From the NCBI GenBank assembly GCA_000182565.2, contig KQ257450.1: DNA of 64,000 nt; one strand, written 5' to 3'. A program made the translations under genes and the position numbers. Each line of letters opens with the position of its first letter. The stretch's first letter is position 1. This document shows positions 1,131 through 21,013 of this stretch, piece after piece. Under the pieces are notes generated by a model, which was not told the origin of the DNA, did not search any database, and saw only the letters and a program-made list of their open reading frames with translations. The DNA is from Spizellomyces punctatus DAOM BR117 (taxonomy: Eukaryota).

Positions 1131-1513
1131 NNNNNNNNNNNNNNNNNNNNNNNNNNNNNNNNNNNNNNNNNNNNNNNNNNNNNNNNNNNNNNNNNNNNNN
1201 NNNNNNNNNNNNNNNNNNNNNNNNNNNNNNNNNNNNNNNNNNNNNNNNNNNNNNNNNNNNNNNNNNNNNNNNNNNNNNNNNNNNNNNNNNNNNNNNNNNN
1301 NNNNNNNNNNNNNNNNNNNNNNNNNNNNNNNNNNNNNNNNNNNNNNNNNNNNNNNNNNNNNNNNNNNNNNNNNNNNNNNNNNNNNNNNNNNNNNNNNNNN
1401 NNNNNNNNNNNNNNNNNNNNNNNNNNNNNNNNNNNNNNNNNNNNNNNNNNNNNNNNNNNNNNNNNNNNNNNNNNNNNNNNNNNNNNNNNNNNNNNNNNNN
1501 NNNNNNNNNNNNN

Positions 1514-4500: not shown

Positions 4501-5897
4501 CCTTGGGAGGCTGTAAAGGTATCCCGTATGGTTCCCCTGTTGACCATAGCCAAACCTGAATTAGCATCAACTTTTAGATCGAGTTGAAGGTCATTCTGTA
4601 CTCTCTCGATACCATTGCTGCAAGTAAGTACGTCTTTAATGGTATCTGCTTTGACCATTTGGAGACAACTGCCAGCCTCACATTTGAGAGAGAGCATCAC
4701 ATCATTGGTAGTCCCAGGCCGGATGGTGACTCCGTTAAATTCCTGGAAAATGTACCCACCTGTGAGTGCATTTCCAACAATTCTGATGGTCTGATTATCG
4801 ACCAAACAGCCAATCTCGCGTCGTCCGTTAAACTCGGGTCCCACTGCTATTGCTCCTGTTTGAGAGCCTTGATAAAATTGGGAAAGATAGTCTTTACTCA
4901 CTGCATACGACCCACCTCCAATAGCAGGAAATACTCCTGTTAATTTGACATTTGGTACTCTCAACTCCTGAAGCGTGGACGAATAAGTGAATGAAGAACT
5001 TCCCAAGTAGCCATAGGTAAGGTTCCCATACATGATTTGTTCATATCCGGGTGATTTCAGGGACAATCTCGAACCCGCTTGACTGAATGTGGAACTATCT
5101 ACCATTAGGCGAATGGCTGTGGTGTCTACTTCTCCTAACACATCAGTCATTTCGGTCAAACTATCGAATCCAAAGTTGAGCCATGAAGACCCGATGTCTA
5201 ACAACGTATCCGCACCTGAACTCGATTTCAGAGCGCCAAATGCTTTTAGTACCGACTGAATGTTAGTTTCCAATTCGTCATTATTGTTCACCTTTAGACT
5301 TTTATGAAGTTTGATTCCAAGGCCGCTCTGGTCACGATACAACGGCTTTTTCAGCGTCTCAGGATCAGGAAAATTAACCGATAGACCATTTTCAGTTATA
5401 AGCAAAGTATCATCTGCTTGTAAACCAACCGTACGTGATTCGGCATCCCTGTAGAGTGGAAAATCATAGTTATAAGGAATGACTGTTAATTTTTCATCCT
5501 CAACTTTTAGTTCATCATCATCAATGTTTAGGCTTACTGTTCGTGAGTCGGGAGCCCTATAGAGAGGTTGCAGGAGTGTCTCTGGTTTAACAGATAAGCC
5601 GTCTTCTGTTATAAGCAGAGTATCGTCTGTTACAAGCCTGACATCATGTTCATCATCAATTAATGGAAAAACATAAGTTGTCTCGGCAAGAGAGATGGTA
5701 TATTTACCTTTATTTTTCTGAATGGAGAGACTAGGCGTTTGACTATCCAAATCGAGTATAGTGACTATACCATCTTTATTCCGTAGGCTCTCTCCATAGA
5801 TAGAATTGGCTTTAACTTTTCCGGACTTGAAATTATCTAGGACTTCTAAATTTCTTCAAACCATATATGTGCCTTGAATGCTATTAGGCAAAGGCAT
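1514..5897 (-). CDS. Large virion fibre/spike-like protein, paralog 1 (>1460 aa; one in-frame TGA at 5856-5858; C-terminus in gap)
   Basis: ATG at 5897 (MPLPNSIQGTYMV*RNLEVLD...) is in frame with ORF 1119..5750. It has N-terminal PLYRD-type shaft-like repeats and three G/S/T-rich STTTGALQIPGGLGV-type repeats typical of viral fibres. Confidence 0.75.
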
Positions 5898-5955
5898 CTT
5901 CTTATTCCTTTATATCATCATAGCTTAGAAAATGAATTGCATGCCGACATTTGGT

Positions 5956-6654
5956 CTATACAATGTCATCAAAGATCGATGGTGGTTTGGTACGCATGAT
6001 ATCCCTGCCGGGATGCGTTACAGGCTCCGCGCGACAGGTATCTATTGCATACCGGGTTGTTCGAGTGTGGTGAACGGGGCGATTTCTCTTTTTTTTGATG
6101 ACTTTGACAACTTCCTCATAATCATCTGAAGAATCATCTTCTTCTTTGTCTGACGATTCCTCAACTACAATCTTCCGTCTTTTTTTCGGTATCAGCGTTT
6201 TAATTCTTTTTTTAGTCTTGTGACTATATGAAGTATTTTGTAAGTCCTCCTCAGCGCGGAGCCTAGCCTCGACACGTTTTTCCTGTTCCACCCTAAGAGC
6301 CTCGGCCTTAGCAAGAATCCTCTCCTCCTCTTTTCTCTTCTTTTCTAGTTCTCTCTCTTCTTTTCTCTTGGCAGCGAGTTCTCGTCTAACCTGAAGAGCC
6401 TTTTCTCGGGATTTTTCTAAATGTGCTCGCTGCTTCTCTGATGCAGTTCATTTTTTGGGAGCGCTGGCATTGACCTCTCTGGGATTGGCCGCTCCGTGCC
6501 CGGCATATTTGTTTACAAGTTCTTGAACATAGTCTTGATGATCATTGTCATTAGTTTCATCATCATCATTCAAACTTTGTTCTTCATCTGTAATGTCAGG
6601 CATGCCTGCCGGCATTTGGCTCTGCGCCAGCATAGATTCCTTTTTTTTAGGCAT
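5956..6654 (-). CDS. Charged coiled-coil viral protein (track ORFs 6448..6687 and 5956..6291 joined through an in-frame TGA at 6448-6450)
   Basis: Reads MPKKKES...APKK*TASEKQRAHLEKSREKALQVRRE...EQEKRVEARL in one frame. The KKRxxSEKQxxxLxKxRE pattern is one I recall from small proteins of PLVs and large DNA viruses. Confidence 0.7.
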
Positions 6655-6693
6655 TTTAGCTTGTAAATAGAAAATAAAAAAACCCAAATACGC

Positions 6694-7671
6694 TTAGCGA
6701 GGTTCTTTTGTCCATGATGATGGTATCTTATAAGAATTACTTGCCCACTCTTTCTTAAGTTCCTTGTGTACCTTACCATTTTTTCTAATCCAATTACCGG
6801 TTCTTGGATTGTAAACTTCCTGCAAGGATGAATCTCTCGGGTTTCTTCTCTCATGAAGCCTTGGCGATGGCTGCATTGTTGTGAAGTCAAATGTAGATGG
6901 AGACGGAGATGGTGAGTCATCCATCGGCGCTAGTGATGGTAAGCCTGAGGTTGGTGAATCAGATCACCTATGTAGAACCCATTGTGTAGGCGGCGTGCCT
7001 CCTTCCTCATAAAAGATGTTCTCAGACAACGCAGGAGTAGGTCGTATCACACCACGTTGCATGTTGTATTCATCTCTTGAGGCAGAAATATCAGTACCCC
7101 TAGTGCCCAAGCCAGTTGTTTCTAGCAAACTCTCCCCAGGATTGTGAATACCATGTGAAGAGCGGAAACGCTGTATGTCAGCCAATTCCTTACATTTTTC
7201 CTCTTTTATAAACTCTTCATAACCTTCGCGCATTCGTCGGATGCATGCAATCAAATCTATGTCATTTTTGTATCCTTCACTACCGTGGTTTATCGGATAC
7301 CTAGTTTCTTGATTAGCACTCGGAGCATTCATCCGGGTACGACCCTCCTGCATCTGTTTGAGTTCTGCATCAGACACAACGGGACAAAATGTATCAGGAT
7401 TCAAAGAGCGTCCATTTTCATCTCTCAGTTCACCAAAACGTCTATTATCAATTTCAATATAGTATGGGTCACTGACGAATTGTGTATCAACCTTACCAAA
7501 TGAACGATACTTGTTTAACAGCGGGTGCTTGAAATAGCCTGTAGGTAACTTTGAGTCAACCCATTTTCTTTTTTCTTTCCAGAACACATCATGTTCAACC
7601 TGCTCAGAGTTGTAAGCAGTTACATCAGTGTTACCTTGCTGTAATAGTTTTACTAATTCAGCAACAGACAT
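6694..7671 (-). CDS. Hypothetical viral protein with C-terminal NPxTGxxI motif (track ORFs 6964..7671 and 6694..6924 joined through an in-frame TGA at 6964-6966)
   Basis: Continuous frame ...WVLHR*SDSPTSGLPSLAPMDDSPS...; the C-terminal YNPRTGNWIRKNGKVHKEL resembles the 2-cysteine-adaptor-like motif of large DNA viruses. Confidence 0.65.
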
Positions 7672-7720
7672 ACCGTTCTATTCTGTATTTTACTATATAG
7701 TATTATTAAAAAAAAGAAGA

Positions 7721-7981
7721 ATGTCGTCTCAGCAAAGGAAGGAACGGATACAAGAGCATTTGAGGAAGAAGTTGGCTGAAAGGAATGAAGGGCAAGAAAT
7801 GGAAACAGTTCTTTCTCGAATTATAAGAGAACTGGAGGAACCTCGCATGCCTGAGCCGGCATTGGCATACAGTAAGGAAACCATCATCCCAGATGCTGAT
7901 GCGGGGGGTATTAACTGGAACGAATATGTTATTATTCATGAAAATCCTCTTTACAGTGATGACTTGAATGAAATCATTTGA
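7721..7981 (+). CDS. Small hypothetical viral protein (86 aa)
   Basis: ATG at 7721 follows an A-rich leader. The gene is divergent from the 7671 ORF and ends at a hairpin. Confidence 0.55.
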   Translation: MSSQQRKERIQEHLRKKLAERNEGQEMETVLSRIIRELEEPRMPEPALAYSKETIIPDADAGGINWNEYVIIHENPLYSDDLNEII

Positions 7982-7982
7982 C

Positions 7983-8003
7983 GCTACTTTTTCTAAAAGT
8001 AGC
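7983..8003. terminator. Palindromic hairpin between convergent genes
   Basis: GCTACTTTT-TCT-AAAAGTAGC is a perfect 9-bp stem filling the gap between stop codons at 7981 and 8005. Confidence 0.55.
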
Positions 8004-8004
8004 A

Positions 8005-8322
8005 TTAATACCCCGCTAATTCAACAGGAAGCGATTTCCTTAAGGCTGAATCAAAATTTTGTTGAATCTCATAGCCCCGCCCTAGACCTTTATGGAGATC
8101 ATCGATATAGCCTCGTCCTCGTGAAATTGTCTCTCTTACTTTGACGGGTACAGATTCGTCATGGACAAGAGATTGATGAACTTTCCCATAGATATCTTTG
8201 GCTTGTCCAGCATGGGCAACAAATTGTCTAATACCGTTGTTAACTTTGTTATAACTGTTCAGCACTCTAAGACCAAAGTTTTTTGCACTTGAGAGAAAGT
8301 TTGCGAATTTTTGACGCAACAT
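8005..8322 (-). CDS. Small amphipathic helical virion protein candidate
   Basis: 105 aa, directly downstream of the penton gene on the same strand, with an amphipathic N-terminus (FANFLSSAKNFGLRVLNSY). Confidence 0.6.
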   Translation of the reverse strand: MLRQKFANFLSSAKNFGLRVLNSYNKVNNGIRQFVAHAGQAKDIYGKVHQSLVHDESVPVKVRETISRGRGYIDDLHKGLGRGYEIQQNFDSALRKSLPVELAGY

Positions 8323-8357
8323 CTTTTACATGTTCCAAATGAAAAAAAAAAAAAAAA

Positions 8358-9101
8358 TTAATCATCTGCAAAGCCAGAGGAATGACAATCGAGAACTAAA
8401 GTGAACCCTTTGCCCTGTAGATCCAAGGGTAGCAATGTTTCAGCATCAAGCAAATGGATGTCGATCGTACTAACAAGGCCAGACTCCGTGTCAATGAAGT
8501 CGGTGTCAAAATAATTCTGCGCACATAGGACAGTTTCAATTTCTTGCGACACCGGAATAGAGGCAATGATATTTAAATCATCTGTGCCTGCATAAATGAC
8601 ATCATTTGACCTTATGTTAGATGAGGCTACGAGCACCATCTTAACGCCTGTCAGATCGATGGGATTTGAGAAGGTAATTGATGTCCCAGGGTCAGATTGC
8701 TGAGTTTGCTGCAATCCGAGCAGTTTGCTTGCTGTGGTTTGAGGGTAGAGAACTTTGAATGGTGTTGTACCCGCGGTCACTGTGATTTGACTGTTTATAT
8801 GATTGTATTCTACAGTGTATGCTTGCGTCCCAGTCGAGTTGAATCCAGCAGTCAGTGCATCGACCAAATCATCAGGGCTATATGTCCCAGGAGGAATAGC
8901 AAAAGTCCTTGCAGCATTACCCATCCCAGCATCATAAAAGGAGACAATATTGTTCTTTTCGTTTACTATGTCCCACGAAAGGGGCAAAATGATCGAATTG
9001 TATCGAATTTTATCACATGCGATGGGTTCGGCTAGAGTCCATTTAGGTTCATTCCTGTTTCCGTTCGTCGCCCTGTTGCTATCGAGAATCAACTTTTTCA
9101 T
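8358..9101 (-). CDS. Minor capsid protein (penton, single jelly-roll)
   Basis: PLV penton pattern: LILDS at the N-terminus, PLSWDIVNEKNN, IPPGTYSPDDLVDAL, NPIDL, IIASIPV and C-terminal IDIHLLD...PLDLQG.FTLVL. Confidence 0.85.
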   Translation of the reverse strand: MKKLILDSNRATNGNRNEPKWTLAEPIACDKIRYNSIILPLSWDIVNEKNNIVSFYDAGMGNAARTFAIPPGTYSPDDLVDALTAGFNSTGTQAYTVEYNHINSQITVTAGTTPFKVLYPQTTASKLLGLQQTQQSDPGTSITFSNPIDLTGVKMVLVASSNIRSNDVIYAGTDDLNIIASIPVSQEIETVLCAQNYFDTDFIDTESGLVSTIDIHLLDAETLLPLDLQGKGFTLVLDCHSSGFADD

Positions 9102-9149
9102 TTCTTCTAATGTATTATAGATACAGAGAGCAAATAAAAAACAAGCGCA

Positions 9150-9821
9150 ATGAAGGCTATTACAATATCACCCTTACCAAGTCAAGTCTCTGGACGCATA
9201 AAGGATAATACAGATCCACGGCTTCCTAGAAAGTATGGTTTTATTGTATACAATGGTGCTCGATTTTGTGGGAAGACGCTAAACATTGCAGTGATATGCA
9301 AATTGTTCTTGAAGAAGCAGTATTCGAATATCATAATTTTCACACCAAATCCACACGATACCAATTGGAACCCTTTAAGAACGAGCAAAAAGGTTCATAT
9401 ATTTGACAAGATTTCCAATGAAATACTCAATTTTATACACGAAGAGCAACTTTATGAATTTGTTCGAAGCGGAAGAAAATGAGATTTACTTCTTATCATA
9501 GATGACTACAATATGCAGAAAGGACATAAGAAGTCACTCGATGAGTTGGCTACACGGGGTAGACACGCTGGAATCACCTGCATCCTGTCGAGTCAATATT
9601 TTTATCACAATAGTCCCGCTGTCCGTAGCAATGCGACGAACTGGATCATTTTTAGACCTTTGAAAAGCGAACTTAAGAAAATGGTCGAAGCAGGCTTATC
9701 TCTCGCTTTACCTGAAGATGTATTTGAAAAGTTCGTTATGGATAATACAAAGAAACTGTTTCATTTTGTGCACATAAATCTACAAAGTTCGAAAAGACCG
9801 TTTAGAGTTGGTTTTTCGTAG
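9150..9821 (+). CDS. A32-like (FtsK-HerA) genome packaging ATPase, interrupted by an in-frame TGA at 9480-9482
   Basis: Walker A GARFCGKT; Walker B LLIIDD just after the TGA in the same frame; A32 signatures TRGRHAGITCILSSQ and SPAVRSNA. Confidence 0.92.
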
Positions 9822-9840
9822 GGGGACAGGCTGTCCCCCT
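9820..9840. terminator. Perfect hairpin at the ATPase stop codon
   Basis: AGGGGGACAG-G-CTGTCCCCCT is a 10-bp inverted repeat overlapping the TAG. Confidence 0.5.
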
Positions 9841-10001
9841 TTGACCCCCTCGCTTTGACAACCATTGTAACTTGTTAAGCTACACCGACTGAGTTCAGGC
9901 TATTTAGGACAGCAAACTCCTTTCCGAAAGGCACAATTTTTGATGTCACTTTTTCTTAAAAAGTGACGTTTTTTTTTTCTAGATGTGTAAGTTAAACCAC
10001 A

Positions 10002-11387
10002 ATGTCTTCAGGAATTCAGGTAACTGAGGTTCGACAAGTCCCAAACGTCTTTACGTATAAGCGCAATGCCAAGAACGGGGTTGTGCTGAATTTTCAGCCA
10101 TCTAGTCAGGTTCGCTTCGAGCCTACCAACGGATTGGGTGACTGTAACTTTGGCAGCAAAATCACTTTTAAAATAGCCGATGACAAGCGTTTTTGGCTTG
10201 TGAATGAAACCTTACATAAATATCGTGTCGTAGGGCTTGATGCAAATAGACAGGAAATCGTTTCTGCCACTGCAACCCACAGGCTATGTCAATCAGGAAC
10301 GGATGCTGTATGGAAACGCCAAAGTGTTCTTATTAATGGAAGGATCATCGAAGATCTCAATGATTATAATTTGTTCACCGCACATGAAAACGCTCTAACA
10401 TTGTGGGAAACCAAACAACATCTTGGGCAATGTGAATATTATTCGAGTGATGCGGCTAACGACCATTCAGCAGTGGTTGCTAAAAACAGGGCATACACTG
10501 TCACTGGCTCATCACTGTCATTCTTTCAAAATGAAGTGGCTTTCCCTCTCTGTCTTGTCAAAGGTGGTGTCCAGGTCGAGATGACTGCAGAGAGTGAACT
10601 TGCCAAAATTTTCCCCACATCCACAGGAATAGATTCATTCAAGATTGTCCAGAACGAACTCATTTGCCAGTTCGCCGAGCCCATACCCGAATACTACAAC
10701 AAGATCCTTAGCCTAATGGAGAGCAACGAATACTTGACCATCCCCATGCAAGTTGTGTGGAGTCAGGAGTTTGCTGGGCAAGCCAGTCGCGTACAGCAAT
10801 TGTCACTTGTGACTGGTGAGCAGTCCTCTGTTTCATCATTGATGTTGGTGACAACTGACAATGTTCGAACTGATGTAGACAAATTGAATTTCAGTGAAGA
10901 TGCTGGGATTAGAACAGTTAGTATCCAGGTGGGTATGCAGCGGTTCCCTGAGGGAAAAGCGATTGCCAACGGTTCCGCTTGTGCTGGTACTAATATTATA
11001 CCTACTGTAGATCCTGAAATGTATGCATTAAGCCAACGTAATAAAGATTTCAATGATGTGCGATTTGCCCCCACTATGTCCGATTTGGAAGGATGGGCAC
11101 TAGCAGGCAAAAAGATACAGCATTGGTCATGGAGGCAAAATTTCAAGCAAAGTCCAGATATGATCGGCGGTGGTTTGAATACTCTAGCCGATGGGCATAT
11201 TCTCATCAATGTGAGTCAATATCCCAACCCTCCGGAAGTAGCCGATTTCCCAAGCGAAAAACTAGAGGGTGATACGCCTAACCCCGATTATATCCCTACG
11301 TTCAAGGACAAGACATTCCATGTCTTCTGGACAACAGACCATGAGATGCACATCGACCGTGATGGTGTTCGCTTGTTACCAGCATAG
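10002..11387 (+). CDS. Major capsid protein (double jelly-roll, PLV type)
   Basis: 461 aa, beta-rich. VRFEPTNG...KITFKI and SGTDAVWKRQSVLINGRIIEDLNDYN match the PLV MCP N-terminal pattern, and the gene sits beside the ATPase and penton. Confidence 0.82.
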   Translation: MSSGIQVTEVRQVPNVFTYKRNAKNGVVLNFQPSSQVRFEPTNGLGDCNFGSKITFKIADDKRFWLVNETLHKYRVVGLDANRQEIVSATATHRLCQSGTDAVWKRQSVLINGRIIEDLNDYNLFTAHENALTLWETKQHLGQCEYYSSDAANDHSAVVAKNRAYTVTGSSLSFFQNEVAFPLCLVKGGVQVEMTAESELAKIFPTSTGIDSFKIVQNELICQFAEPIPEYYNKILSLMESNEYLTIPMQVVWSQEFAGQASRVQQLSLVTGEQSSVSSLMLVTTDNVRTDVDKLNFSEDAGIRTVSIQVGMQRFPEGKAIANGSACAGTNIIPTVDPEMYALSQRNKDFNDVRFAPTMSDLEGWALAGKKIQHWSWRQNFKQSPDMIGGGLNTLADGHILINVSQYPNPPEVADFPSEKLEGDTPNPDYIPTFKDKTFHVFWTTDHEMHIDRDGVRLLPA

Positions 11388-11449
11388 TTCAACAACAGGA
11401 ACCACGATGATTTTTTCTAAGCTTTGGTTAGGTAAGCCTCAAGAAGAAT

Positions 11450-11620
11450 ATGACAAAAACACATCGAAAACTCGTCAACGTATCGGCCATGCCGAATAAA
11501 GGACTTAGAGTGGCTGCTCGTGCAAGAAACAGGCGCATCATCGCTGCTAGAAAAGCCGCAGCAACACGTAAGCGACGCTACGGTTCTGGAAGAGTCATGA
11601 GGCGTGTTGTTTATGTTTAA
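11450..11620 (+). CDS. 56-aa Arg/Lys/Ala-rich core (DNA-condensing) protein candidate
   Basis: Manual translation MTKTHRKLVNVSAMPNKGLRVAARARNRRIIAARKAAATRKRRYGSGRVMRRVVYV*. No acidic residues; directly after the MCP; below the ORF-track cutoff. Confidence 0.7.
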   Translation: MTKTHRKLVNVSAMPNKGLRVAARARNRRIIAARKAAATRKRRYGSGRVMRRVVYV

Positions 11621-11785
11621 AAAACGGCGCCAAGAAATGCCAAGACTATGCCGGGCGCGGGGCGGCCAATCCCTGCAGGGATGCCAAGATTCTTTCCATT
11701 GAACGGAAGGGCGTCCCTGAGTACAAGCCGGTGGCATAAAAAGGCACTCGGTGTATCTTTTCTCCCATTAGCACGAGTATGGGTT

Positions 11786-11929
11786 TGAAACATCAGGTAT
11801 GATTCGAAACATTTAACCGAATCTGAAACATCAGATACGTGTTCTGAAACACGTGCCATAAATCTGAAACATCTAACCGAATCTGAAACATAGCTACATT
11901 TTCTGAAACACCTAACCGAATTAGAAACA
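11786..11929 (+). repeat. Array of 8 phased GAAACA motifs (period 19-21 bp)
   Basis: GAAACA starts at 11787, 11806, 11825, 11846, 11866, 11885, 11905 and 11924, several within a TAACCGAATCTGAAACA context. Confidence 0.85.
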
Positions 11930-12684
11930 TGTCCATTGCAAAGAGTCAATGGGGGCAAGTGACACACTTTGTAGGAGGCTTGCTACATCCCATAGCGTGT
12001 CGTGCTCTCAAGATGGGTCTAGAGGATCTCACCTTCGAGCAAAGCGAGTGTTTATTAGAAAATATGGCTGATAATCAGAAGATATATAAGGATGACAAGG
12101 AGTTGCTAGAATCACTTAAAGGTCATCTGAGACGACTCCTAAAGTGGAAGAAGCGAGAAGAGACTCAACGGAAATCTTCATCTCTCAAGTTAAAGAGGAA
12201 GTTTGAAGAGTTCGAAGAGTCCGATGGTGAAACCTTGAGTTCTGGTTCTTCATCTGATGCTGACGATTCCGATGATGCCGATGACAGCGATTACAGTCCA
12301 CAAAAGGCTAAACGCAGACGTGTCGAGAAAGAGAGTATGCCAGGCGCGGAGCGGTCAAGCCCGGTGCAGACCCATATCCCGGCGCAGAGCCATATCCCGG
12401 CGCAGAGCCATATGCCAGAAGGCATGCCGGAAGGCATGCCGGCAGGCATCCCGGCAGGCATCCCGGCAGGCTTTCCTGAGCCTGAGCGTGATGGGGAATC
12501 CGCTAATTTAGAGCAAATGCTCATGGAGCGTATCGAGCAGCAGCAGATGCAGATTAACGCACTCATAGCAGCTAGCATCCCTAAGCGCAGAAAGAGCGTC
12601 AAGGCTAAAGTGAGCGATCAGGACATTGTCCATGCTGATGTTATCAATCCTCCAGATGTAGGAAGCAGTAGCGCCGCTGCTTGA
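11929..12684 (+). CDS. Hypothetical viral protein with acidic tract, NLS-like basic motifs and (M/I)P(A/E)G repeats
   Basis: 251-aa ORF with 18-bp and 12-bp GC-rich tandem repeats at ~12372-12470. Confidence 0.65.
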   Translation: MSIAKSQWGQVTHFVGGLLHPIACRALKMGLEDLTFEQSECLLENMADNQKIYKDDKELLESLKGHLRRLLKWKKREETQRKSSSLKLKRKFEEFEESDGETLSSGSSSDADDSDDADDSDYSPQKAKRRRVEKESMPGAERSSPVQTHIPAQSHIPAQSHMPEGMPEGMPAGIPAGIPAGFPEPERDGESANLEQMLMERIEQQQMQINALIAASIPKRRKSVKAKVSDQDIVHADVINPPDVGSSSAAA

Positions 12685-12968
12685 TTCTCTTCAATTACCG
12701 TTGACACTCGCTAAAAAATCCATGAAATCAACAAAAAAAGTATGTCGTCCATTCGAAGAACGGACATGGAAACAACAAAACCAGAAAAAAAAAATACAAA
12801 ACGACAAAAACAGTCTGTAAAGGTGTTTTGTAGCACAATGTACATAGATATCCCTTTGTTTAGTATCATGTAGGGGCGTTGTTATAGAGCTTTTGTACAA
12901 CGTTTGCTAATAAACACACACGTTTAAACAAAGATAAATAATATTTTGTATACACAATATATTTTAAC

Positions 12969-13283
12969 ATGGGACGCAAATCAGGATCGATAAACACGAA
13001 GGATCGCTACAGGGTATACAAGATCGAAGAAGATGGTTCTAGAACATTTGTAAATGACTATCAGGCAGCCATAGAGATTGCTAACAGGTTAGGTGTCTCG
13101 CGCTCATACATTCATAATATAATACATGGGTTAGCAGAATCGCCTATTTCAAAGATGTATGCTATAGAAAAGTTACCATGTATACGAAAACCACCACCAC
13201 CTCCTCCTAAGATGAGATACTTTAAAATAAATCGAAAAGTGGCTATTCCTGATGATCCAGTAAAAGTTGCTCACTTCGCATGA
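12969..13283 (+). CDS. Small HTH (NUMOD1-like) DNA-binding protein
   Basis: FVNDYQAAIEIANRLGVSRSYIHNII fits a helix-turn-helix; basic N-terminus MGRKSGS. Confidence 0.6.
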   Translation: MGRKSGSINTKDRYRVYKIEEDGSRTFVNDYQAAIEIANRLGVSRSYIHNIIHGLAESPISKMYAIEKLPCIRKPPPPPPKMRYFKINRKVAIPDDPVKVAHFA

Positions 13284-13357
13284 ACATCATTCGAAGAACA
13301 AACACATTTAAAGCTTTGAAAATATTTATTTTTTAACACTATATATTTCTATTTACT

Positions 13358-16300
13358 ATGCCTTTGATTTTTGACCCAATCGCAAACAGAAACGTAAAAG
13401 AAGACTCGAAGCCTTTCGAGAAGATGATGCGGAAGATCGTCTCTGGAAACTTCTCATGTAAGAACTGGACTAAGAAACGACGAGAAGCACTAGAGAACCT
13501 TCAAATACATCGAGTACCAAGATTCCTACAATCTGAGCGAGAAAAAAGAATTGCTGCTGCGAGACGCACTGAGGCTCAAAAGCAGGCTATTGCTGAAAAG
13601 GCCAGAGAGACAAGAAGGCTTAATAAAGAAGCGGAAGAGCGCGAGATGAGAGAAATTCAAGAGAGGGCTCAGGCTGCTATTAAAAAGCGAAAGGAAGCCG
13701 CTAAGAAGGCTGCTGCCACTAGGGCTAAACGTAAGTATAATCTTCGAAAGCGTCAAGAATCATTCTCACCTTTAATATCTGTCAAAGAGATCAAAATCAA
13801 AGGTATCGGTTATACAAAGGAACTTTATCGGTTCAATCCAAAGTACACCTTCGCTACTCATGATGATATTGTTTCATTTTTCAATGATGTCATCAAGGAA
13901 TCACTTGTAGGCCTTGAATGCGGTGACAAAGTGCAAATAGGGTTTCAACATCAAAGTCTACACAATGGATTTTGGTCATCAAAAGTTGTATCAGTTAGTG
14001 ATCTGATTGCTTCTGATGTGATAGACGAAATTACTGCGAGAATGCAATCGGCTGAAATAGCATCAATCGATGAAAGCATGACTATCGAGGTGCGTCGTTT
14101 AGTTTCGGTAAAGGGCGGCGCCTTCAAAAACTATCATGACCATCTATCAGCACAGTCAAAAAGTTGTGTCATTGTTGTGAAAAACAATGGTAACGATTGT
14201 GGTATGAGAGCAGTTGCCTTATCCGTAGCATTCCATACGATGGATCACTCAACAAATGAATATGCGTACATCATGAAACAAAGAAAGCCACTGGACAAAA
14301 TTGTTACTAACTATTATGAAGGATGCGGGTTACCTGTTGGTCAGAAGATGTCTTACGGCGATTTTCCAAAGTTGGTTTCATTCCTCAAAAGGAACATCAT
14401 TATTGTTGATCTAGAGAATGGTGGTAAGCCTCTTATGGTCAAAGGTGTTAACAATGAGCGATACAATGAGAAACCTGCTACTATCCTATGTAAAGGGGAT
14501 CATTTCGATTGCATAACCAAGATTAACGCCTTTTACTGTGCATCGTATTTTTGTTTCCAATGCATGAAAGGACACAAGCATACCAATCATAAATGTGATA
14601 AGAAACGAGGATGCAACCTTTGTGGTCGGGTCACATGTAAACAAGGATCTCCCGATGATCTAGTGTTGTGTTTAAGTTGTAACTTAGGTCACTTTTCAGG
14701 AGATTGTGATGATTATCACAAGGAGAAAAAATGCGATAAAATATGGAAATGTAACAAGGAAGGCGGCTGCGGGCGTGTATTTGAGTGTGCTTATTATGAC
14801 GGTAATTGTGCTGAGTTACACAATTGCAACCACCATCTCTGCCGTCCTTGCAAGGCTTACGTCACTCCTGACCATCGATGCTTCATACAGAAAAAGAAAC
14901 CCAGAAAGCACATTAGCAAGATCATAGCATTTGATTTTGAATCAGAGTTTCTACATGATGGTGAACATCATGTAAAGTTTACGGATTGCAAGGTAGTTTG
15001 TACCGGTCTATGCCAATCTGTGTGCCAATGTCATGAGCATCACTCCTTCTTTGAATTTGATGCTTTTTATCAATTCATCTTCAAGAACCCTAATACAACA
15101 TTCATTGCTCACAATGGTCAGGGTTACGATTTCCACTTTCTCTTCAAAAAGTTCAATGACAACGGTGTTAAGCCTAAGTATATCTCAAATGGGTTGAAGA
15201 TCATTTCAATGGTGCTGCCCAAGTTCAACATCCGGTTCATTGATAGCATGTCGTTTTTGCCTATGGGACTGTCAAAGTTGCCTTCCATGTTTGGATTAGA
15301 GGAACATGTTCGTAAGGGTTACTTTCCACATTGGTTCAAATGTTCAAATGATTATAAAGGCGTTTTACCGTCTTTGGATGATTTCCGATTCGACAGTATG
15401 CCCTATGATAAACGCGCTGATGCACGACGCTGGTACAAGAAAACCCTACGCGAATGCATGAAGGGTAGGTATGTTTTTGATTACACTAAGGAACTTGTTG
15501 AATACTGCAAGAATGATGTCGATATTCTAGCAGCGGCCGTGAAATTGTTCCGAGAGCAATTCCTTGTAGCAACCGATGGTGAAATTGATCCTTGGGCTTA
15601 TAAAACCATAGCATCGGCATGTATGGGGACTTACAGGCATATGTTCATGCCTGAAGAAAGCATACCCACACATCATGAAGAAGGAATGTGGCGTCATTCA
15701 GACAAGGCTGTCCAGTGGCTCGAATATCTATGCGATAATGGCGTTCCAGATATGCGACATGTTCTACATGGTGGAGAGAAATGGATTGACTGATTAAATG
15801 GGAAAAAATTCTATGCTGATGGCTATTCTCCTTCGACAAATACTGTGTATGAATTTAATGGTTGTGAATTCCATGGGTGTAAACAATGCAAAGACGATGA
15901 TGCCGTTAATTATCGTGGTGTCCCTTATAAGTCTTTGAGACAATATACTGATAATAAGCATGAAAAATTGATTGCTCTAGGTTACAATTATGTCTCGATC
16001 TCAGAGTGTGAATATGACTCAAACAAGAAGATATGTGATTATGTTATGAGTAAAGACCTCGACATTGAATATATCCGACCTCTAGATCCTCGTAACGCAT
16101 TTTTTGGTGGTAGAACAAATGCCAGCAAACTTTACTACAAATGTTCTGAGAAGGAAAGAGTGAAATACTGCGATTTTACATCACTGTATCCTTGGGTAAA
16201 CGCTTTTGGAGAGTACCCCTGCTACTCGTTCCCCACAAGGATTCTTAACAACTTTGATGGCCAACTGAACTACAATGGTTTCATCAAGTGTCGAATAGTA

Positions 16301-17500
16301 CCCCCTCGTGGGTTATATCACCCTGTACTTCCTGCTAAGATTAACAACAAGACCATGTTTGTTCTTTGTAATAATTGTGCTGAAAAAGGAATCTCTGTTT
16401 GTCGCCACTCTGTTGAACAGAGGGCTTTTGTTGGGACTTGGTGCATTCCGGAAGTGAAGTTAGCGCTTTCAAAGGGCTATGTCATTTCTCAAGTTTATGA
16501 GGTTCTTCATTTCGAAAATACGGGATCTGATCTTTTCAAAGATTACATCTTCACATTTCTCAAAATCAAGCAGGAAGCATCAGGGTACCCTAAATGGTGT
16601 AAAAATGATGACGACAGAAAAAAGTATATTGACGACTACGAAAGCAAGCAAGGTATTCATCTTGATCCAGCCAAAATTGTCTACAATGAAGGATTACGTC
16701 TCGTGGCTAAGTTGATGCTCAATTCATTGTGGGGTAAATTCGGTCAAAAGAACAACATGCGTAAGCATATCACAATCAATGCTGAGGAAAATCCTGATGA
16801 ATACTACTCCATCATGTTCAATGATAAATATATTGTACACGACATTGTTGATTATGATAATGGTCGCACTTTGGATCTGTCATACTCCTTGCATAAGGCT
16901 GCTGTTCGTGATGACAAGAATACTAGTATTTTCATTGCTGCATACACTACCGCTTTGGCTCGTTGTAAACTTTACAGTGTTCTGGATACTGTAGGGGAAA
17001 AGGTGTTGTACTATGATACTGATTCTATTATATATGTTGATGATGATATAGGATCAACTGAAAAGACTTTGCCCTATGGTGATTATCTTGGAGACCTGAC
17101 AGATGAATTGAAAGGCGACCATATTGTAGAATTTGTTTCAGGTGGCGCTAAGAATTACTCTTACATTCTCAACAAAACGGGGAGAGCAAAGACGGTCTGT
17201 AAAGGCTTCGCACTTTCATATGAAAATGGACTCAATCTTGGACATGAGTCTATGAAGGATATAGTATTTAACCCTAGGTACATTGATGATGAAGGGATTG
17301 AGAAAGAGAGTTGTGTTAATTTTAACTTTAGCGAAATCAACATTAGTAAAACACACAGTGTGCGTAACAAGACAAAGATCATCATACCAGAAAAAAATAA
17401 CTCACCCAGCAAAAAGTACAAGTTTGTCTACGACAAACGTGTGGTTCAAGAATTTAACTCTGAGTCTAAGGTCATAGAGACACTTCCTTTCGGTTTTTAA
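13358..17500 (+). CDS. polB: Protein-primed family B DNA polymerase (single ~1380-codon gene with an in-frame TGA at 15791-15793)
   Basis: ExoI AFDFES, ExoII AHNGQGYD, ExoIII YCKNDV; polymerase motifs FFGGRT, DFTSLYP, KLMLNSLWGKFGQ, YYDTDS, KNYSY. The two track ORFs are in the same frame, separated only by one TGA. Confidence 0.95.
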
Positions 17501-17501
17501 A

Positions 17502-18602
17502 ATGGGGACAAAAACCGAACTAATCACGAAAGTTTACTATGATCCCAAGACTGGACTTCAGAGCATAGAAAAGCTCTACCAGAGACTCAAGGATCAGGGT
17601 ATTTCCAGAAAGGATATAAAGACATTCATCGACAGTCAGCATGTGCAACAAGTACACAAACCTCTTGTCAAGCCTAACTACATGCATATAACAGCCAATG
17701 GTGTTGATCACATATGGCAATCGGATTTGTGTGACATGCAGAAATATGCTACCTACAACAACGGTTACCGTTATCTGTTATGTATTGTAGACGTGTACTC
17801 TTGTTATGCCTTTGTTTTTCCTCTCAAGAATAAAACCAGAGAAAAGATTGCTGATTGTTTTACAAAGTTACTCGCTAGGCGGCGTCCTAAAAATATCACG
17901 ACTGATAGGGGTTCAGAGTACAACAACATTGTTTTTGAGCAATTGCTCAATAAGTATGGTATAAACCATTACATGGCTGAAGTTGCTGACCATAACCATA
18001 TGGGTCTGGTCGAAAGGTTTAATCGCACACTGAAAAGTGTTATCTCCAGATACATGACCGTATTTAAAACTAAGCGCTACATAGATGCTCTTCCTGACCT
18101 TGTTATGAACTACAATACTTCATATCACAGTCTATTGAAAAAGGCACCTGTCGATGTTGCTGATGGTGATTATATACGCGATAATAGCAAGGCTGTAAGT
18201 GATTTCAAGAAGTTTGACATTGGTGACCATGTAAGAATATTACTCAAACGGGATATTTTCAAAAAAGGATATGAGGCAAAATGGTCTGATGAAGTATACC
18301 ATATAGTCAATGTCGATGGCTATCGATTCGTAGTAGCATATGCCAATGGTAAAGAAATAGACCAGCATTTCAAATACTATGAATTACAGAAAACCAATGC
18401 ACCGATTACCGAGAAACCAGGTCATCGACCAGTAAAATTGACTAGAACACAAAAAGAAGTTCGCAAAGAAATTCGTCAGTTGGAGCCTGTACAAACACGA
18501 CCTACTAAAACAAGATTGCAACAGAAAAAGTTAAAAGTTCGTCCGAAGGGTACATTTTCACACATAGAAATTCCGCGGCGGAAGATGCCGGTGCAGATGT
18601 AG
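17502..18602 (+). CDS. int: Retroviral-like (rve, DDE) integrase of Polinton type
   Basis: YYDP N-terminus; catalytic WQSDLCDM / TDRGSE / VERFNRTLK; SH3-like FDIGDHVRI..FKKGY...WS; starts 1 nt after the polB stop. Confidence 0.95.
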   Translation: MGTKTELITKVYYDPKTGLQSIEKLYQRLKDQGISRKDIKTFIDSQHVQQVHKPLVKPNYMHITANGVDHIWQSDLCDMQKYATYNNGYRYLLCIVDVYSCYAFVFPLKNKTREKIADCFTKLLARRRPKNITTDRGSEYNNIVFEQLLNKYGINHYMAEVADHNHMGLVERFNRTLKSVISRYMTVFKTKRYIDALPDLVMNYNTSYHSLLKKAPVDVADGDYIRDNSKAVSDFKKFDIGDHVRILLKRDIFKKGYEAKWSDEVYHIVNVDGYRFVVAYANGKEIDQHFKYYELQKTNAPITEKPGHRPVKLTRTQKEVRKEIRQLEPVQTRPTKTRLQQKKLKVRPKGTFSHIEIPRRKMPVQM

Positions 18603-18962
18603 TCCATTTGAAGAATGGACATGAGGACCCCGGCAGGCATGCCGGGCGCGGAGCGGCCAATCCCGGCTGGTATGCCTCGAAGGTAATGTTGAGATGGGAT
18701 GAGTTCTGATGCCTGAGTTGCCTACATCTTCTGTGGAATTTTGTGTAAACAAGGAAACCAATGTTGCCATTTAAACATGTGGATATTTCTATTCTTTTTG
18801 CAATCTTGCTAGGAAAATGGGGACATTTCTCATCCCTACATGTCTCTACATAATTTTTTACTTTCCATAAGCTTCCAATTTTTACCATTGGTTTTATCCT
18901 GTGGCACTTTTTCCCTGGGAATATTTTTGATGAAATTGTCCCACAGTGCCTCACTTTGTAGT

Positions 18963-19779
18963 CAACTTACCTGCTTGTCGAGCAGCAGAGAATGTCATCG
19001 TTATCGACCCAAACAAGCGCGACATTCTCTACTGCCAAGACAGCAATGGTACGACATTTCGCTACACCGCCAACCAGCGAGCCGTGGAGACTGGAAGCCA
19101 GTGATTTGCAAAGAGACGAGAAGCAATGAAGGAAGAAGCTGGAGTTGATCTCATAGAATCACGAATACCATCCCACAAAACAATGAACCTCATGGACTTC
19201 ACTCGCTACCTTCTCGTTCGCCGCGCTGATTGGGATCGTCGCAAGGAATTCTATTCGCATCCTGCTCATACTCGATGGAAATGGCACTCCTTCATAAACC
19301 GTCAGAAGAGCGAATCAGACCTCATAAGTAACATGCGCAACAAGTACGGTGAAAACTTTACTGTTGTGATGGGTGATTGGAGCGATGCTGGTCGAACTGC
19401 AAAATTTCAGACCTCATCAAAGACAAAAGGCTGGCGCACCCTCTTTAAGCGGAACAGGATAAACTGCTTCCTTCTCGATGAGTACAAGACCTCATCTGTT
19501 TGCCCTCGCTGTTCATCCTCTGAGTTTGTCGAGAAAGGCTTCAAAGAACGACCTCATTCAAGACCTTGGCAGCGAGGCAAGGTTGAAAAAGTCCATGGAT
19601 TGCTGGGTTGTACCAACCCTAACTGTTTGCAGCAAGACTGGACGTTGAGAATGCGCTACTGGAACCGAGATACGCTGGCAACCTGTAATATGCTAACGAT
19701 CGTGCAATCAATGTTGGATGGACACGGTAGACCAGAGGTGTTCAGCAGGAGCAGCAGGAGTGTTCCAGCGGTAGCGTAG
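18963..19779 (+). pseudogene. Fz1: Fanzor1 (eukaryotic TnpB-family RNA-guided nuclease), 3' part only, with an in-frame TGA at 19102-19104
   Basis: The frame of ORF 19126 extends upstream as NLPACRAAENVIVIDPNKRDILYCQDSNG (RuvC-I Asp at 19006). Also present: VMGDWS, LDEYKTSSVCPRC (RuvC-II Glu + Zn finger), CTNPNC and WNRD (RuvC-III). Closely resembles SpuFz1 as I recall it. Confidence 0.93.
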
Positions 19780-19797
19780 CGTAGATTAGTTAGATTA

Positions 19798-19887
19798 GCT
19801 TTTCCGAACTGGTTGTCGCCGGTTCAATCCATGGTGCGGGTGCTAGTGCCAATACCCACCGGCTCCGCACTATCGACACCAGCAAGA
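19798..19887 (+). ncRNA. Fanzor1 omegaRNA (~75-nt scaffold ending ...CCGGCTCCGCACTA at 19872, plus predicted ~15-nt guide TCGACACCAGCAAGA)
   Basis: Lies just downstream of the Fanzor stop. TTTCCGAACTGGTTGTCGCCGGTTCAATCCATGGTGCGGGTGCTAGTGCCAATACCCACCGGCTCCGCACTA resembles the SpuFz1 scaffold/right end as recalled. Ends are approximate. Confidence 0.82.
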
Positions 19888-21013
19888 TCGCATCCGCAAG
19901 GTTCACATAGTATAAAACTTTGGGCAACGCTTCCGCAACCGAGCGGATGCGCTACAGATGATTGAAATGAAGCATATATTATATATCCAAGTCGGAGGCC
20001 TAGTGGCAGGAGAGGAGATCCCCTACTGAATGAGCTAGGCTCTGCCGCGACGGCACAGTGGCGGTTTATGGATACTTTACGAGGTGCAGCTGTCGCGCAG
20101 CGACGGGAAGGAACCTTCCGATATGCGTTTGAACTTGGAGCGAAACCTTCCTGGTAAGGTACTCTCAAATTTTCCATTTGTTCATAAGCTTCTAATCGAT
20201 GGCTCAAATGAAATCGAGAGCTTGACTTACTAGCCTCGCCGTGTAAATCTTAATAGGGATTGTAGCTCTCATGGCACCTTCATGTTGTGAAGGTTAAGAG
20301 TCTGGCCCGAATGATGGGCTGGGAGGGCAGGTTTGGCTATACTGGTCACAGCCAAGCCTTCCCAGTACGGCCCACCATTGTTGCGACGAACATTGAGCGG
20401 AACGTACCCGTTTCTAAGATGTAAATGCCAAATATGCAAGATCATCCAACCAAACCTCTGAATCTACACATCCATATTCCCTGACGGAAATAAATGCTGT
20501 TGTCCTTGCTGCCTCCAATGACGGTAGATTATGGTCTTAGATCGCACCCCGTAGACCAATTATAAGTAGTGAAAATTGCCCAGAGAAGATTATGGTATCT
20601 CGTATGGCAGGTGTACGATTGCAAATCCTGTAATAAAGTTCCAGATCAGGATCCAAAAACGAGCCTAACCTTCTGTTGAAGACAGTCAAATTCACTACAC
20701 ATAACTAGACTGCTATGCAAGCCATCTTGAGTTTGTCATTGCTATCTTTTTCCCTTTTCTCTGCACCGAGCATGGTGAAATAATATTCGATGGGTGATTT
20801 TCTATTTTAAGGTGCAGAGGACCCATTCACGCCCTCTTTTCCAGAATCTAATCCTGTCCACACTTGCTTCTGACAATGCCTTCCAGAACCCTCAAACGCG
20901 CCTGTTGGTATAAGAAACCATCATGGCTGACAGAGGGAAACCTCGTTAGACTGCAGCCATTCTGATACCGCAACCAAGAGTGCCCGAGTTCATCTAACAA
21001 ATTATCATTCAAC

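What the first reader, a model, noticed from the sequence alone, without database searches (positions are those of the whole stretch)
18940..19779. Virus-Fanzor junction: the virus appears to have integrated inside an RNA-guided nuclease gene
Seen: Fanzor1 coding sequence begins mid-gene ~14 codons before the RuvC-I Asp, directly against the presumed viral terminus; the N-terminal REC/WED part and left end are missing here. Established: Fanzors are eukaryotic OMEGA nucleases carried by transposons and found in large DNA viruses. Inference: the rve integrase inserted the virus into a Fanzor1 element, so the 5' half should lie beyond the left TIR with a 5-6 bp TSD (about CAACTT). Such nesting offers a route for Fanzor capture by viruses, or reflects targeting of silenced repeats. 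A deletion that joined the two is the alternative.
Basis: partly seen in the sequence, partly recalled or inferred. Interest (0 to 1): 0.8.

Follow-up and report, generated by a model that had tools for sequence, protein, structure and literature searches.

The report
Virus-like element inserted into Fanzor gene
A roughly 21-kb virus-like mobile element has landed inside one copy of a chytrid fungus's Fanzor RNA-guided nuclease gene and split it, which is a real but fairly ordinary case of one mobile element nesting in another.

Summary
Homology to SpuFz1 (Spizellomyces punctatus Fanzor1, PDB 8gkh) starts abruptly at window 18964, which is residue 369 of 638 and 14 codons before the Mg-binding D383. 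It runs to the stop at 19779. DNA to the left is a Polinton/Maverick-like endogenous virus with protein-primed polymerase, rve integrase and a probable capsid protein.

- A paralogous virus copy printed whole in a published supplement has termini ACTACAAAG...CTTTGTAGT and a 6-bp target duplication. This puts the window virus's end at 18962 and makes CAACTT (18963-18968) the duplicated target.
- An independent run's contig follows the terminal repeat to 18962. It then continues into the reverse complement of CAACTT plus 22 letters encoding Fanzor residues just upstream of the break. That is the predicted left junction.

Caveats:
- The left end lies outside the window.
- Only one low-depth contig shows the left junction.
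- The published Fanzor-locus catalogue lists this locus as a lone partial gene and holds no matching 5' half.

Both elements are decaying through CpG-to-TpG changes. Virus capture of Fanzor and targeting of silenced repeats remain unshown. This is a nested insertion of known kinds, of modest interest.

The parts
1..18962 (.). Right ~19 kb of a Polinton/Maverick-like endogenous virus. Its left end lies outside the window, predicted about 1.8 kb upstream of base 1 if it has the same length as the 20,854-bp paralog.
   Evidence: Gene content. Terminus fixed by comparison with the paralog's termini and 6-bp duplication. N run at 1131-1513.
1514..5855 (-). Long repetitive fibre-like ORF. A diverged tandem paralog runs off the window start (137-1128 matches 4545-5530 at 73-76%).
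   Evidence: No Pfam family found. The function label is inference only.
9138..9821 (+). A32/FtsK-like packaging ATPase candidate, broken by TGA at 9480-9482.
   Evidence: PF04665 at E 4.3e-4, 20.3 bits, below the 22.8-bit cut-off. Reads of other copies show C at 9480, giving CGA (X9: 66 of 74).
10002..11387 (+). Probable major capsid protein (461 aa).
   Evidence: 97% identical to SPPG_07208 and SPPG_05630. Atlas feature hits at 0.97-0.98 go to viral clusters, a few carrying DJR-like_dom or Capsid_N. The AF2 model was poor at pLDDT 36.9 and a PDB profile search found nothing, so this is a lead, not proof.
13337..17500 (+). Protein-primed family B DNA polymerase, interrupted by an in-frame TGA at 15791-15793.
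   Evidence: PF03175 at E 8.3e-21 (N-terminal part) and 6.4e-25 (C-terminal part). Stop codon seen.
17502..18602 (+). rve (retroviral-type) integrase.
   Evidence: PF00665 at E 8.4e-17. No chromodomain found in the C-terminal 166 aa at E up to 10.
18639..18962 (.). Right terminal inverted repeat of the virus. The outer end is exact and the inner edge is approximate.
   Evidence: Outer end CTTTGTAGT matches the paralog's right terminus. An X2 contig diverges from the window to the left of 18639 (255 loose letters). Depth rises about 1.5-fold in bin 18217-18817.
18963..18968 (.). CAACTT, the right copy of the 6-bp target-site duplication. It also forms codons N369-L370 of the Fanzor frame together with base 18969.
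   Evidence: The X2 contig continues beyond 18962 with the reverse complement of CAACTT plus Fanzor upstream sequence. The paralog has a 6-bp duplication, ACCGCA.
18963..19779 (+). 3' part of a Fanzor1 (SpuFz1-family) gene, residues 369-638, with an in-frame TGA at 19102-19104. It is annotated in the source genome only as a 217-aa protein starting at 19126.
19798..19872 (+). omega-RNA scaffold region of the Spu-1 element, including the 30-nt right inverted repeat at 19843-19872.
   Evidence: Saito et al. annotate 'end' at 2879..2908 of their entry, equal to window 19843-19872. Their text describes a 75-nt scaffold spanning the IR. The region folds into two stem-loops at -34 kcal/mol, z -2.8. 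The multi-copy read zone ends at 19872/19873 with divergent loose ends.
19873..19887 (+). Position where the 14-15-nt omega-RNA guide would be read from host flank DNA.
   Evidence: Inference from Saito et al.'s description of transcripts extending 14-15 nt beyond the conserved region. Expression at this locus was not tested.

Best explanation
This is a three-layer nest in Spizellomyces punctatus DNA.

Layer 1: a ~2.1-kb Spu-1 element carrying a Fanzor1 gene and its omega-RNA sat in unique host DNA. Its right inverted repeat ends at 19872.

Layer 2: a ~21-kb Polinton/Maverick-like virus later integrated into the Fanzor ORF between codons ~367 and 370, using its own rve integrase. The integrase made a staggered 6-bp cut at CAACTT, and gap repair duplicated those 6 bp on both sides of the virus. 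The gene is therefore split. Residues 369-638 plus the omega-RNA module lie right of the virus in the window. The 5' part lies beyond the virus's left terminal repeat, outside the window.

Layer 3: both elements have since decayed by deamination of methylated CpG. This gave CGA>TGA stops in the Fanzor fragment and in the viral ATPase, plus an in-frame stop in the polymerase whose origin was not traced.

Shown: the breakpoint, the viral terminus, the 6-bp rule in a paralog, and one contig carrying the complementary left junction.
Inferred: catalysis by the integrase, the order of events, and survival of the whole 5' half.
For: Breakpoint: 17 of 19 Fanzor relatives start to align at 18964 and none matches further left in the window. 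The fragment matches 8gkh at E 2.7e-173.

Viral genes: PF03175 and PF00665 immediately to the left.

Termini and duplication: in the published 43,112-bp locus, a paralogous virus of 20,854 bp runs from ACTACAAAG at 8022 to CTTTGTAGT at 28875. ACCGCA sits directly outside both ends, and the arms are reverse complements over the visible ~105 nt (compared by eye). The window has the same CTTTGTAGT ending at 18962.

Left junction: an X2 contig has a loose end behind 18962 of 28 letters with agreement 1. This is the reverse complement of Fanzor codons KALYVEN followed by CAACTT.

Empty sites: reads from uninterrupted Fanzor copies end ...GTGGAGAA directly before window 18963 (X9: 74 reads) or before 18964 (X9: 225 reads, X10: 246 reads).

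Unique host flank: depth falls from about 1000 to about 10 beyond 20020. X2 contigs there carry 0 differences over 367, 1054, 663 and 560 bp.

CpG decay: among the 29 virus-region differences listed, all 18 of 18 where the window has T or A and the reads have C or G are TpG or CpA in the window.

Precedent: Saito et al. report 11 Fz loci with further genes between the IRs, including Ty3 inside the Fz gene.
Against: The left junction is not in the window.

It rests on one Logan contig of one low-depth run (about 2.5-9x). Only 28 letters were printed, and I did not see how long the contig's matched part is. 351 loose-end rows were not shown.

Saito et al.'s catalogue of 42 Fz loci lists this locus as a 4,850-bp entry with only 'fz 369_638' and one IR. 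Their method merges hits closer than 25 kb and manually searches 50 kb for IRs. The catalogue shows:
- no other partial Fz near this locus on the same scaffold (5 loci listed there);
- no Fz hit of 53-59% coverage except 286_638 and 281_638;
- no further virus terminus next to Fanzor.
So either the reference assembly lacks or garbles the left junction (there is an N run inside the virus at 1131-1513), or the 5' part is largely deleted.

Raw reads were only 38-51 nt and reads spanning 18962/18963 were not tabulated, so the right junction has no explicit read count.

The virus has at least 4 copies. The contig's assignment to this particular copy rests on the exact CAACTT fit.
Confidence: 0.83

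Rival explanations
1. The virus and a 5'-truncated Fanzor copy were joined by a deletion, or the virus inserted next to an already truncated copy. No Fanzor 5' half adjoins the virus's other end.
For: Saito et al. list the locus as a lone partial Fz with a single IR. No 5' half was found in their file. Other truncated Fz copies exist in the genome, for example 552_638, 587_638, 286_638 and 281_638.
Against: The break coincides to the base with an intact viral terminus, CTTTGTAGT, identical to the paralog's. A random deletion would not preserve this. The X2 contig joins a viral terminal repeat to the Fanzor sequence immediately upstream of the break with a 6-bp overlap.
Confidence: 0.08
2. Assembly chimera: two repeats (virus and Fanzor, both multi-copy) were wrongly joined in the draft assembly, and the junction does not exist in the genome.
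For: Both partners are repeats. The scaffold has N runs, including 1131-1513 inside the virus. Reads across the junction were not explicitly counted.
Against: The two repeats share no sequence at the join that could mislead an assembler. The join falls exactly at the viral terminus. The complementary junction with the matching 6 bp is seen in an independent run. Depth at 18944 (13, 101 and 15 reads in X8-X10) is continuous with the terminal repeat.
Confidence: 0.04
3. The Fanzor fragment is cargo of the virus (captured). The true viral end would then lie at or beyond 19872.
For: Fanzors are reported in large dsDNA viruses (Bao & Jurka 2013, abstract seen).
Against: The paralog ends at CTTTGTAGT with a 6-bp duplication and no Fanzor at its ends. 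The region 18963-19872 behaves as Spu-1 repeat: depth about 100-fold above the virus, and the published right IR sits at 19843-19872. Two other virus copies, those encoding SPPG_07208 and SPPG_05630, do not appear in the Fz-locus file.
Confidence: 0.02

Closest known systems
Polintons/Mavericks and Polinton-like viruses integrated in eukaryotic genomes
   Same: Protein-primed polymerase, rve integrase, a probable capsid gene and a weak A32-like ATPase match. Terminal inverted repeats of a few hundred bp, a 6-bp target duplication and a ~21 kb size also match. Bellas & Sommaruga 2021 report integrated elements with TIRs and 5-7-bp duplications, including one in S. punctatus (passages read).
   Different: This is not the S. 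punctatus element they used. Their table cites SPPG_00918-00930 with a different gene order and a 51%-related lake-virus capsid. The capsid fold is not verified here and no maturation protease was found. The termini read AC...GT, whereas I recall AG...CT-type termini for classical Polintons (recalled, not checked).
Spu-1 / SpuFz1 Fanzor1 elements of S. punctatus (Bao & Jurka 2013; Saito et al. 2023)
   Same: 92% protein identity over residues 369-638. The catalytic D/E/D equivalents and zinc finger are kept, as is the right inverted repeat with a two-stem omega-RNA region. This very locus is the last entry of Saito et al.'s Supplementary Data of Fz loci.
   Different: Residues 1-368 and the left IR are missing at this site, and the frame has a TGA, so this copy cannot make a nuclease. 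Neither paper's main text mentions Polinton or Maverick (0 occurrences).
Ty3/Gypsy insertions inside Fz genes (Saito et al. 2023)
   Same: An rve-integrase-bearing element is nested in a Fanzor gene. Saito et al. found 11 of 42 Fz loci with extra genes between the IRs and read the Ty3-in-gene cases as past transposition rather than association.
   Different: Here the inserted element is a DNA virus-like element with polymerase and capsid genes rather than an LTR retrotransposon.
Fanzor genes encoded by large dsDNA viruses
   Same: A Fanzor sequence and viral DNA lie next to each other.
   Different: In those cases the virus carries an intact Fanzor as cargo (Bao & Jurka 2013 abstract). Here a host-resident Fanzor is the target and is destroyed. 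Nothing shows transfer into the virus.

Membership tests
Fanzor1 (SpuFz1 family) | Significant sequence homology to characterised Fanzor1 | tested here: met
   8gkh at E 2.7e-173. 92% identity to SPPG_07727 over residues 369-638.
Fanzor1 (SpuFz1 family) | RuvC Mg-binding residues (D383, N385, E541, D606 in SpuFz1) and the zinc-finger cysteines | tested here: met
   The alignment shows VIDPN, LLDEYKT, WNRD and CPRC...C conserved. Residue roles come from the passage read.
Fanzor1 (SpuFz1 family) | Complete protein with N-terminal REC/WED part and an open frame | tested here: not met
   No match to residues 1-368 anywhere in the window. In-frame TGA at 19102-19104.
Spu-1 element | 30-33-nt inverted repeats at both ends, with an omega-RNA scaffold at the right end | tested here: inconclusive
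   The right IR is annotated at window 19843-19872 and the scaffold region folds into two stems. The left IR is not in the window and not in the published entry.
Polinton/Maverick-like virus | Protein-primed family B DNA polymerase | tested here: met
   PF03175 at E 8.3e-21 and 6.4e-25, above the 25.8-bit cut-off. The frame is broken by one stop.
Polinton/Maverick-like virus | Retroviral-type (rve) integrase | tested here: met
   PF00665 at E 8.4e-17, 61.7 bits against a 32.6-bit cut-off.
Polinton/Maverick-like virus | Terminal inverted repeats and a 6-bp target-site duplication | tested here: met
   The paralog in the published locus has inverse-complementary ends and ACCGCA on both sides. 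For the window's copy, the right arm and CAACTT are seen directly, and the left side is seen only through one contig.
Polinton/Maverick-like virus | Double jelly-roll major capsid protein | tested here: inconclusive
   AF2 model at pLDDT 36.9. No PDB profile hit at E up to 10. No Pfam family. Atlas feature hits at 0.97-0.98 go to viral clusters, with DJR-like_dom in 10% and Capsid_N in 16-24% of members.
Polinton/Maverick-like virus | FtsK/A32-type packaging ATPase and adenain-like protease | tested here: inconclusive
   ATPase: PF04665 at E 4.3e-4, below the cut-off. Protease: no family found in the ORFs scanned, and not all ORFs were scanned.

The most novel reading that the evidence does not exclude
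Spu-1/Fanzor loci may be preferred landing sites for integrase-bearing elements in this gene-dense chytrid genome, both Ty3 retrotransposons and this virus family. The cause could be their silenced, 5mC-marked chromatin.

Two of the four assembled virus copies I could place lie inside IR-bounded Fanzor loci: this one directly in the ORF, and another inside a further repeat nested in a split Fz gene. In addition, 11 of 42 Fz loci carry insertions.

If real, Fanzor elements would act as sinks that absorb invading viruses. They would also put viral ends next to omega-RNA genes, a possible first step toward viral acquisition of Fanzor.
Probability: 0.15. Interest if true: 0.55.

Novelty: new member of a known kind. 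Interest (0 to 1): 0.3.

Why it matters
The locus gives a base-exact example of a Polinton-like virus integrating by the classical integrase route (6-bp duplication) in an early-diverging fungus. It also explains one of the 'partial' Fanzor loci in the SpuFz1 source genome.

It documents a multi-copy endogenous virus family: at least 4 copies in S. punctatus, with relatives in Gaertneriomyces, Powellomyces and Geranomyces. This family is distinct from the one S. punctatus element used in the Polinton-like virus literature I read.

It does not change how Fanzor or Polintons are understood. TE-in-TE nesting is expected, and a single insertion cannot show targeting or gene capture.

Tried and rejected
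- Whole-genome access: none is held for this window, so the left flank could not be read.
- Earlier scan notes: none for this genome.
- Inverted repeats within the window: none of 40 nt or more, as expected if the left arm lies outside.
- The two loose-end consensus strings occur nowhere in the window at up to 3 mismatches.
- Annotated proteins ending in Fanzor residues ~366 plus a read-through into the viral repeat: none among the 34 hits of the N-terminal search or the 20 proteins checked by tblastn. That search covered only proteins of 350-1117 aa.
- The 5' half in Saito et al.'s Supplementary Data: not found. A 5' half split into several short hits could have escaped the coverage-value search.
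- Capsid fold: the AF2 model was too poor (pLDDT 36.9) to send to a fold search, and the PDB profile search was empty.
- Chromodomain in the integrase C-terminus, as a possible heterochromatin-targeting device: none at E up to 10.
- Rfam on 18000-21000: no family at E up to 1.
- Copy number from depth: the three raw-read runs are ChIP libraries with strongly uneven coverage. Depth was therefore rejected as a copy-number measure, and copy number was taken from annotated paralogs instead.
- Pfam on SpuFz1 itself returned nothing in this library copy, although a precomputed PF26935 label appears.

Full report
**What is at the coordinates**

Reading the window stop-to-stop shows one frame from 18934 to 19779, interrupted by a TGA at 19102-19104. 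Its product from 18964 onward is a Fanzor1.
- Searching residues 19105-19776 against longer proteins gave 36 hits. The best were Spizellomyces punctatus DAOM BR117 proteins at 80-92% identity.
- An all-against-library HMMER search gave 1551 relatives at E<=0.001.
- Against solved structures the fragment matches SpuFz1 (8gkh and six further entries) at E 2.7e-173 over the last 271 residues of the fusion chain.
- tblastn of 20 stored proteins (19 Fanzor relatives plus the window's own product) placed the start of homology at 18964 for 17, at 18973 for one and at 18946 for one. The window's own 217-aa annotated product starts at 19126. Nothing matched residues 1-368 anywhere in the 64 kb.
- In SpuFz1 numbering the fragment begins at N369. 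D383, which with N385, E541 and D606 coordinates the two Mg ions (passage read), lies 14 codons later, and all four equivalents are present.

**What lies to the left**

From at least base 1 to 18962 the window carries a virus-like element.
- A protein-primed polymerase at 13337-17500 (PF03175, two pieces, E 8e-21 and 6e-25, with an in-frame stop at 15791-15793).
- An rve integrase at 17502-18602 (PF00665, E 8.4e-17).
- A weak A32-like ATPase match at 9138-9821 (below Pfam's cut-off), broken by TGA.
- A 461-aa protein at 10002-11387. I call it a probable capsid protein only on the strength of Atlas feature hits to viral clusters, some with DJR or Capsid_N domains. Its AF2 model was unusable (pLDDT 36.9) and a PDB profile search was empty.
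- Long fibre-like ORFs on the minus strand that run off the window's start.

The element's left end is therefore not in the window.

**Origin and copy number**

The window's exact 461-aa protein is on record from a 2,242,449-bp contig. It clusters with SPPG_07208 and SPPG_05630 (97% identity). SPPG_05487 is a more distant copy, at 67% by BLASTP and 77% in the alignment. The virus therefore has at least four copies in this genome. Relatives occur in Gaertneriomyces, Powellomyces and Geranomyces.

The one S. punctatus Polinton-like virus used by Bellas & Sommaruga 2021 corresponds to SPPG_00918-00930 and has a different gene order. It is a different element.

**Fixing the viral terminus**

Saito et al. 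2023 deposited GenBank-style entries for 42 'loci with Fz'. The last entry (4,850 bp) is this locus: 'fz 2000..2812, 369_638', protein SPPG_00319, and one 30-nt IR 'end' at 2879..2908. Position 2000 equals window 18964, so the IR is window 19843-19872.

Another entry (43,112 bp) contains SPPG_05487. It shows an Fz gene split into residues 18-326 (1172..2080) and 319-638 (40950..41912) between two IRs.

I searched that file for 8-letter words from the window's viral end. Four words per orientation were chosen so that every block phase is covered. Each word had chance hits elsewhere in the file: 8 places, of which 2 are the true left terminus. Of the 15 places, 3 are true termini.
- A left terminus ACTACAAAG starts at 8022, preceded by ACCGCA.
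- A right terminus ...CTTTGTAGT ends at 28875, followed by ACCGCA.
- The visible ~105 nt of the two arms are reverse complements and about 95% like the window's end (compared by eye).

That copy is 20,854 bp with a 6-bp duplication. Its flanks are not Fanzor, so it sits in other inserted DNA that is itself inside the split Fz gene.

By the same rule the window's virus ends at 18962 (...CTTTGTAGT), and the next six bases, CAACTT (18963-18968), are the candidate duplication. If the window's copy has the paralog's length, its left end lies about 1.8 kb before base 1.

**The left junction**

One search found runs holding the stretch. I laid three raw-read ChIP runs (reads of 38-51 nt) and one run's Logan contigs on 8000-26000 at 90% likeness. 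Three observations matter.

(a) An X2 contig matches the window up to 18962 and then continues for 28 letters unlike the window. Read as reverse complement, these are 22 letters encoding K-A-L-Y-V-E-N followed by CAACTT. Combined with the window's right flank this restores KALYVENNLPACR, exactly SpuFz1's sequence around residue 369. Because the arms are inverted repeats, this is what the virus's left junction looks like when aligned to the right arm.

(b) Another X2 loose end of 255 letters begins left of 18639, and depth rises about 1.5-fold in the bin containing 18639-18817. Both fit a terminal repeat of roughly 324 bp.

(c) Reads from uninterrupted Fanzor paralogs end ...GTGGAGAA immediately before 18963 (X9: 74 reads) or before 18964 (X9: 225, X10: 246). 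These show the empty-site sequence.

Neither loose-end string occurs in the window.

The deletion alternative cannot give such a contig.

**What speaks against, or limits, this**

- The left junction is seen in one low-depth contig only, and only 22 nt of Fanzor beyond the duplication are visible.
- 351 of 375 loose-end rows were not displayed, and reads across 18962/18963 were not tabulated.
- Saito et al. merged hits closer than 25 kb and searched up to 50 kb by hand for IRs. Their entry for this locus still has only the 3' part and one IR.
- On this scaffold they list five loci, none a 5' half.
- No Fz hit of 53-59% coverage exists in the file other than 286_638 and 281_638.
- The word searches found no further virus terminus next to Fanzor.

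Either the draft assembly lacks the left junction or most of the 5' half has since been lost. An assembly gap is plausible for a join of two repeats, and there is an N run at 1131-1513 inside the virus. I could not read the scaffold upstream of the window.

**The Fanzor remnant and its right end**

The multi-copy read zone runs from 18963 to 19872/19873, where loose ends diverge (agreement 0.45-0.63). Depth then falls from about 1000 to about 10, and X2 contigs in the flank are identical to the window. The Spu-1 right end is therefore at 19872 and host DNA follows.

The 75 nt ending at 19872 fold into two stem-loops (-34 kcal/mol, z -2.8). This agrees with the published 75-nt two-stem scaffold spanning the 3' IR, followed by a 14-15-nt guide. 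Rfam has no family for it. The split copy thus keeps an apparently whole omega-RNA module, like the 134 protein-less 'ghost' loci Saito et al. describe. Its expression was not tested.

**Decay**

Among the 29 differences in the viral part listed (40 rows shown, 670 not shown), 18 have T or A in the window where most reads have C or G. All 18 are TpG or CpA in the window. They include the ATPase's TGA at 9480. The Fanzor TGA at 19102 has the same origin (CGA in other copies).

One codon shows three states. The window has CAT, SPPG_07208 has Cys (so TGT or TGC), and most reads have CGT. The window's copy has therefore accumulated CpG deamination relative to its paralogs, as expected for methylated repeats.

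**Mechanism and order of events**

An Spu-1 element inserted in host DNA. The virus then integrated into its ORF through its rve integrase (staggered 6-bp cut, fill-in). Both then decayed.

The integrase's role is inferred from the TIR and duplication signature. The order follows from the nesting: host DNA flanks Spu-1, and Spu-1 flanks the virus.

**Comparison with what is known, and novelty**

Nesting of integrase-bearing elements in Fz loci is already reported: 11 of 42 loci, with Ty3 inside the gene, read by the authors as past transposition. Polinton-like elements with TIRs and 5-7-bp duplications in S. punctatus and oomycetes are also reported, and a 2026 preprint notes presumed viral regions in many chytrid genomes.

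I did not find in print that this 'partial Fz' locus is split by a virus. I also did not find this multi-copy virus family described. The relevant checks were:
- searches for 'Spizellomyces punctatus'+'Fanzor' and for 'Spizellomyces'+'Polinton';
- 0 occurrences of Polinton or Maverick in the two Fanzor papers' main texts;
- 0 occurrences of integrase, polymerase or capsid in the locus file.

It is a new member of known kinds.

**Targeting and capture**

Whether Fanzor loci are targeted remains open. Two of four placed virus copies lie within IR-bounded Fz loci. That exceeds a uniform-genome expectation, but it is easily produced by survival of insertions only in non-genic repeats. No chromodomain was found in the integrase.

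One ChIP run (X9) covers the virus at about 60x against 4-39x in the flanks. The other two runs peak over host promoters instead. This hints at a distinct chromatin state, but I do not know the antibodies. Nothing supports capture of Fanzor by the virus.

Noticed in passing
window 8000-18962 and 19102: The window's virus copy differs from the majority of reads at many sites. All 18 of 18 listed transitions of the type window-T/A versus read-C/G are in TpG or CpA context, meaning CpG deamination private to this copy. They include the nonsense codons at 9480 (ATPase) and 19102 (Fanzor).
   Followed up: partly
published locus entry of 43,112 bp (Saito et al. Supplementary Data; not in the window): A second Fanzor gene is split (residues 18-326 and 319-638, 38.9 kb apart). 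The intervening DNA holds a 20,854-bp copy of the same virus family with a 6-bp duplication, ACCGCA. That copy is inserted into other non-Fanzor DNA, part of which recurs in another Fz locus entry.
   Followed up: partly
window 8000-26000: ChIP run X9 covers the virus at about 60x but the flanks at only 4-39x. Runs X8 and X10 are flat on the virus (about 10x) and peak at about 100-130x over 23626-25428, near the UreD gene. This suggests opposite chromatin marks on virus and host genes. The antibodies are unknown to me.
   Followed up: no
window 19798-19887: The orphaned Fanzor 3' end keeps a two-stem omega-RNA scaffold and right IR, with only two majority differences from other copies (19810, 19831). 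It could still supply a guide RNA in trans, like the published ghost loci.
   Followed up: partly
window 137-1128 vs 4545-5530: Two tandem fibre-like genes on the minus strand are 73-76% identical, a duplicated tail or fibre gene in the virus. An N run (1131-1513) lies between them.
   Followed up: no
window 18639-18676, 11648-11685, 12337-12364, 6481-6506: A short GC-rich motif of about 26-38 nt (89-96% identical copies) recurs at the inner edge of the terminal repeat and at three other places in the virus. One overlaps a PAGMPAG-type peptide repeat. A 17-nt string at 18574-18590 also reappears at the contig-defined inner boundary of the other arm, so the repeat may extend further inward with a 55-bp indel.
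   Followed up: partly
window 58046-58345 vs 61640-61939: A 300-nt direct repeat at 97% identity lies in a low-GC region with four N runs (57774-62910). It is unrelated to the finding.
   Followed up: no
window 13337-14700: The polymerase ORF has a ~580-residue N-terminal extension before the PF03175 match, with a lysine/glutamate-rich stretch and cysteine-rich segments. Its function is unassigned.
   Followed up: no
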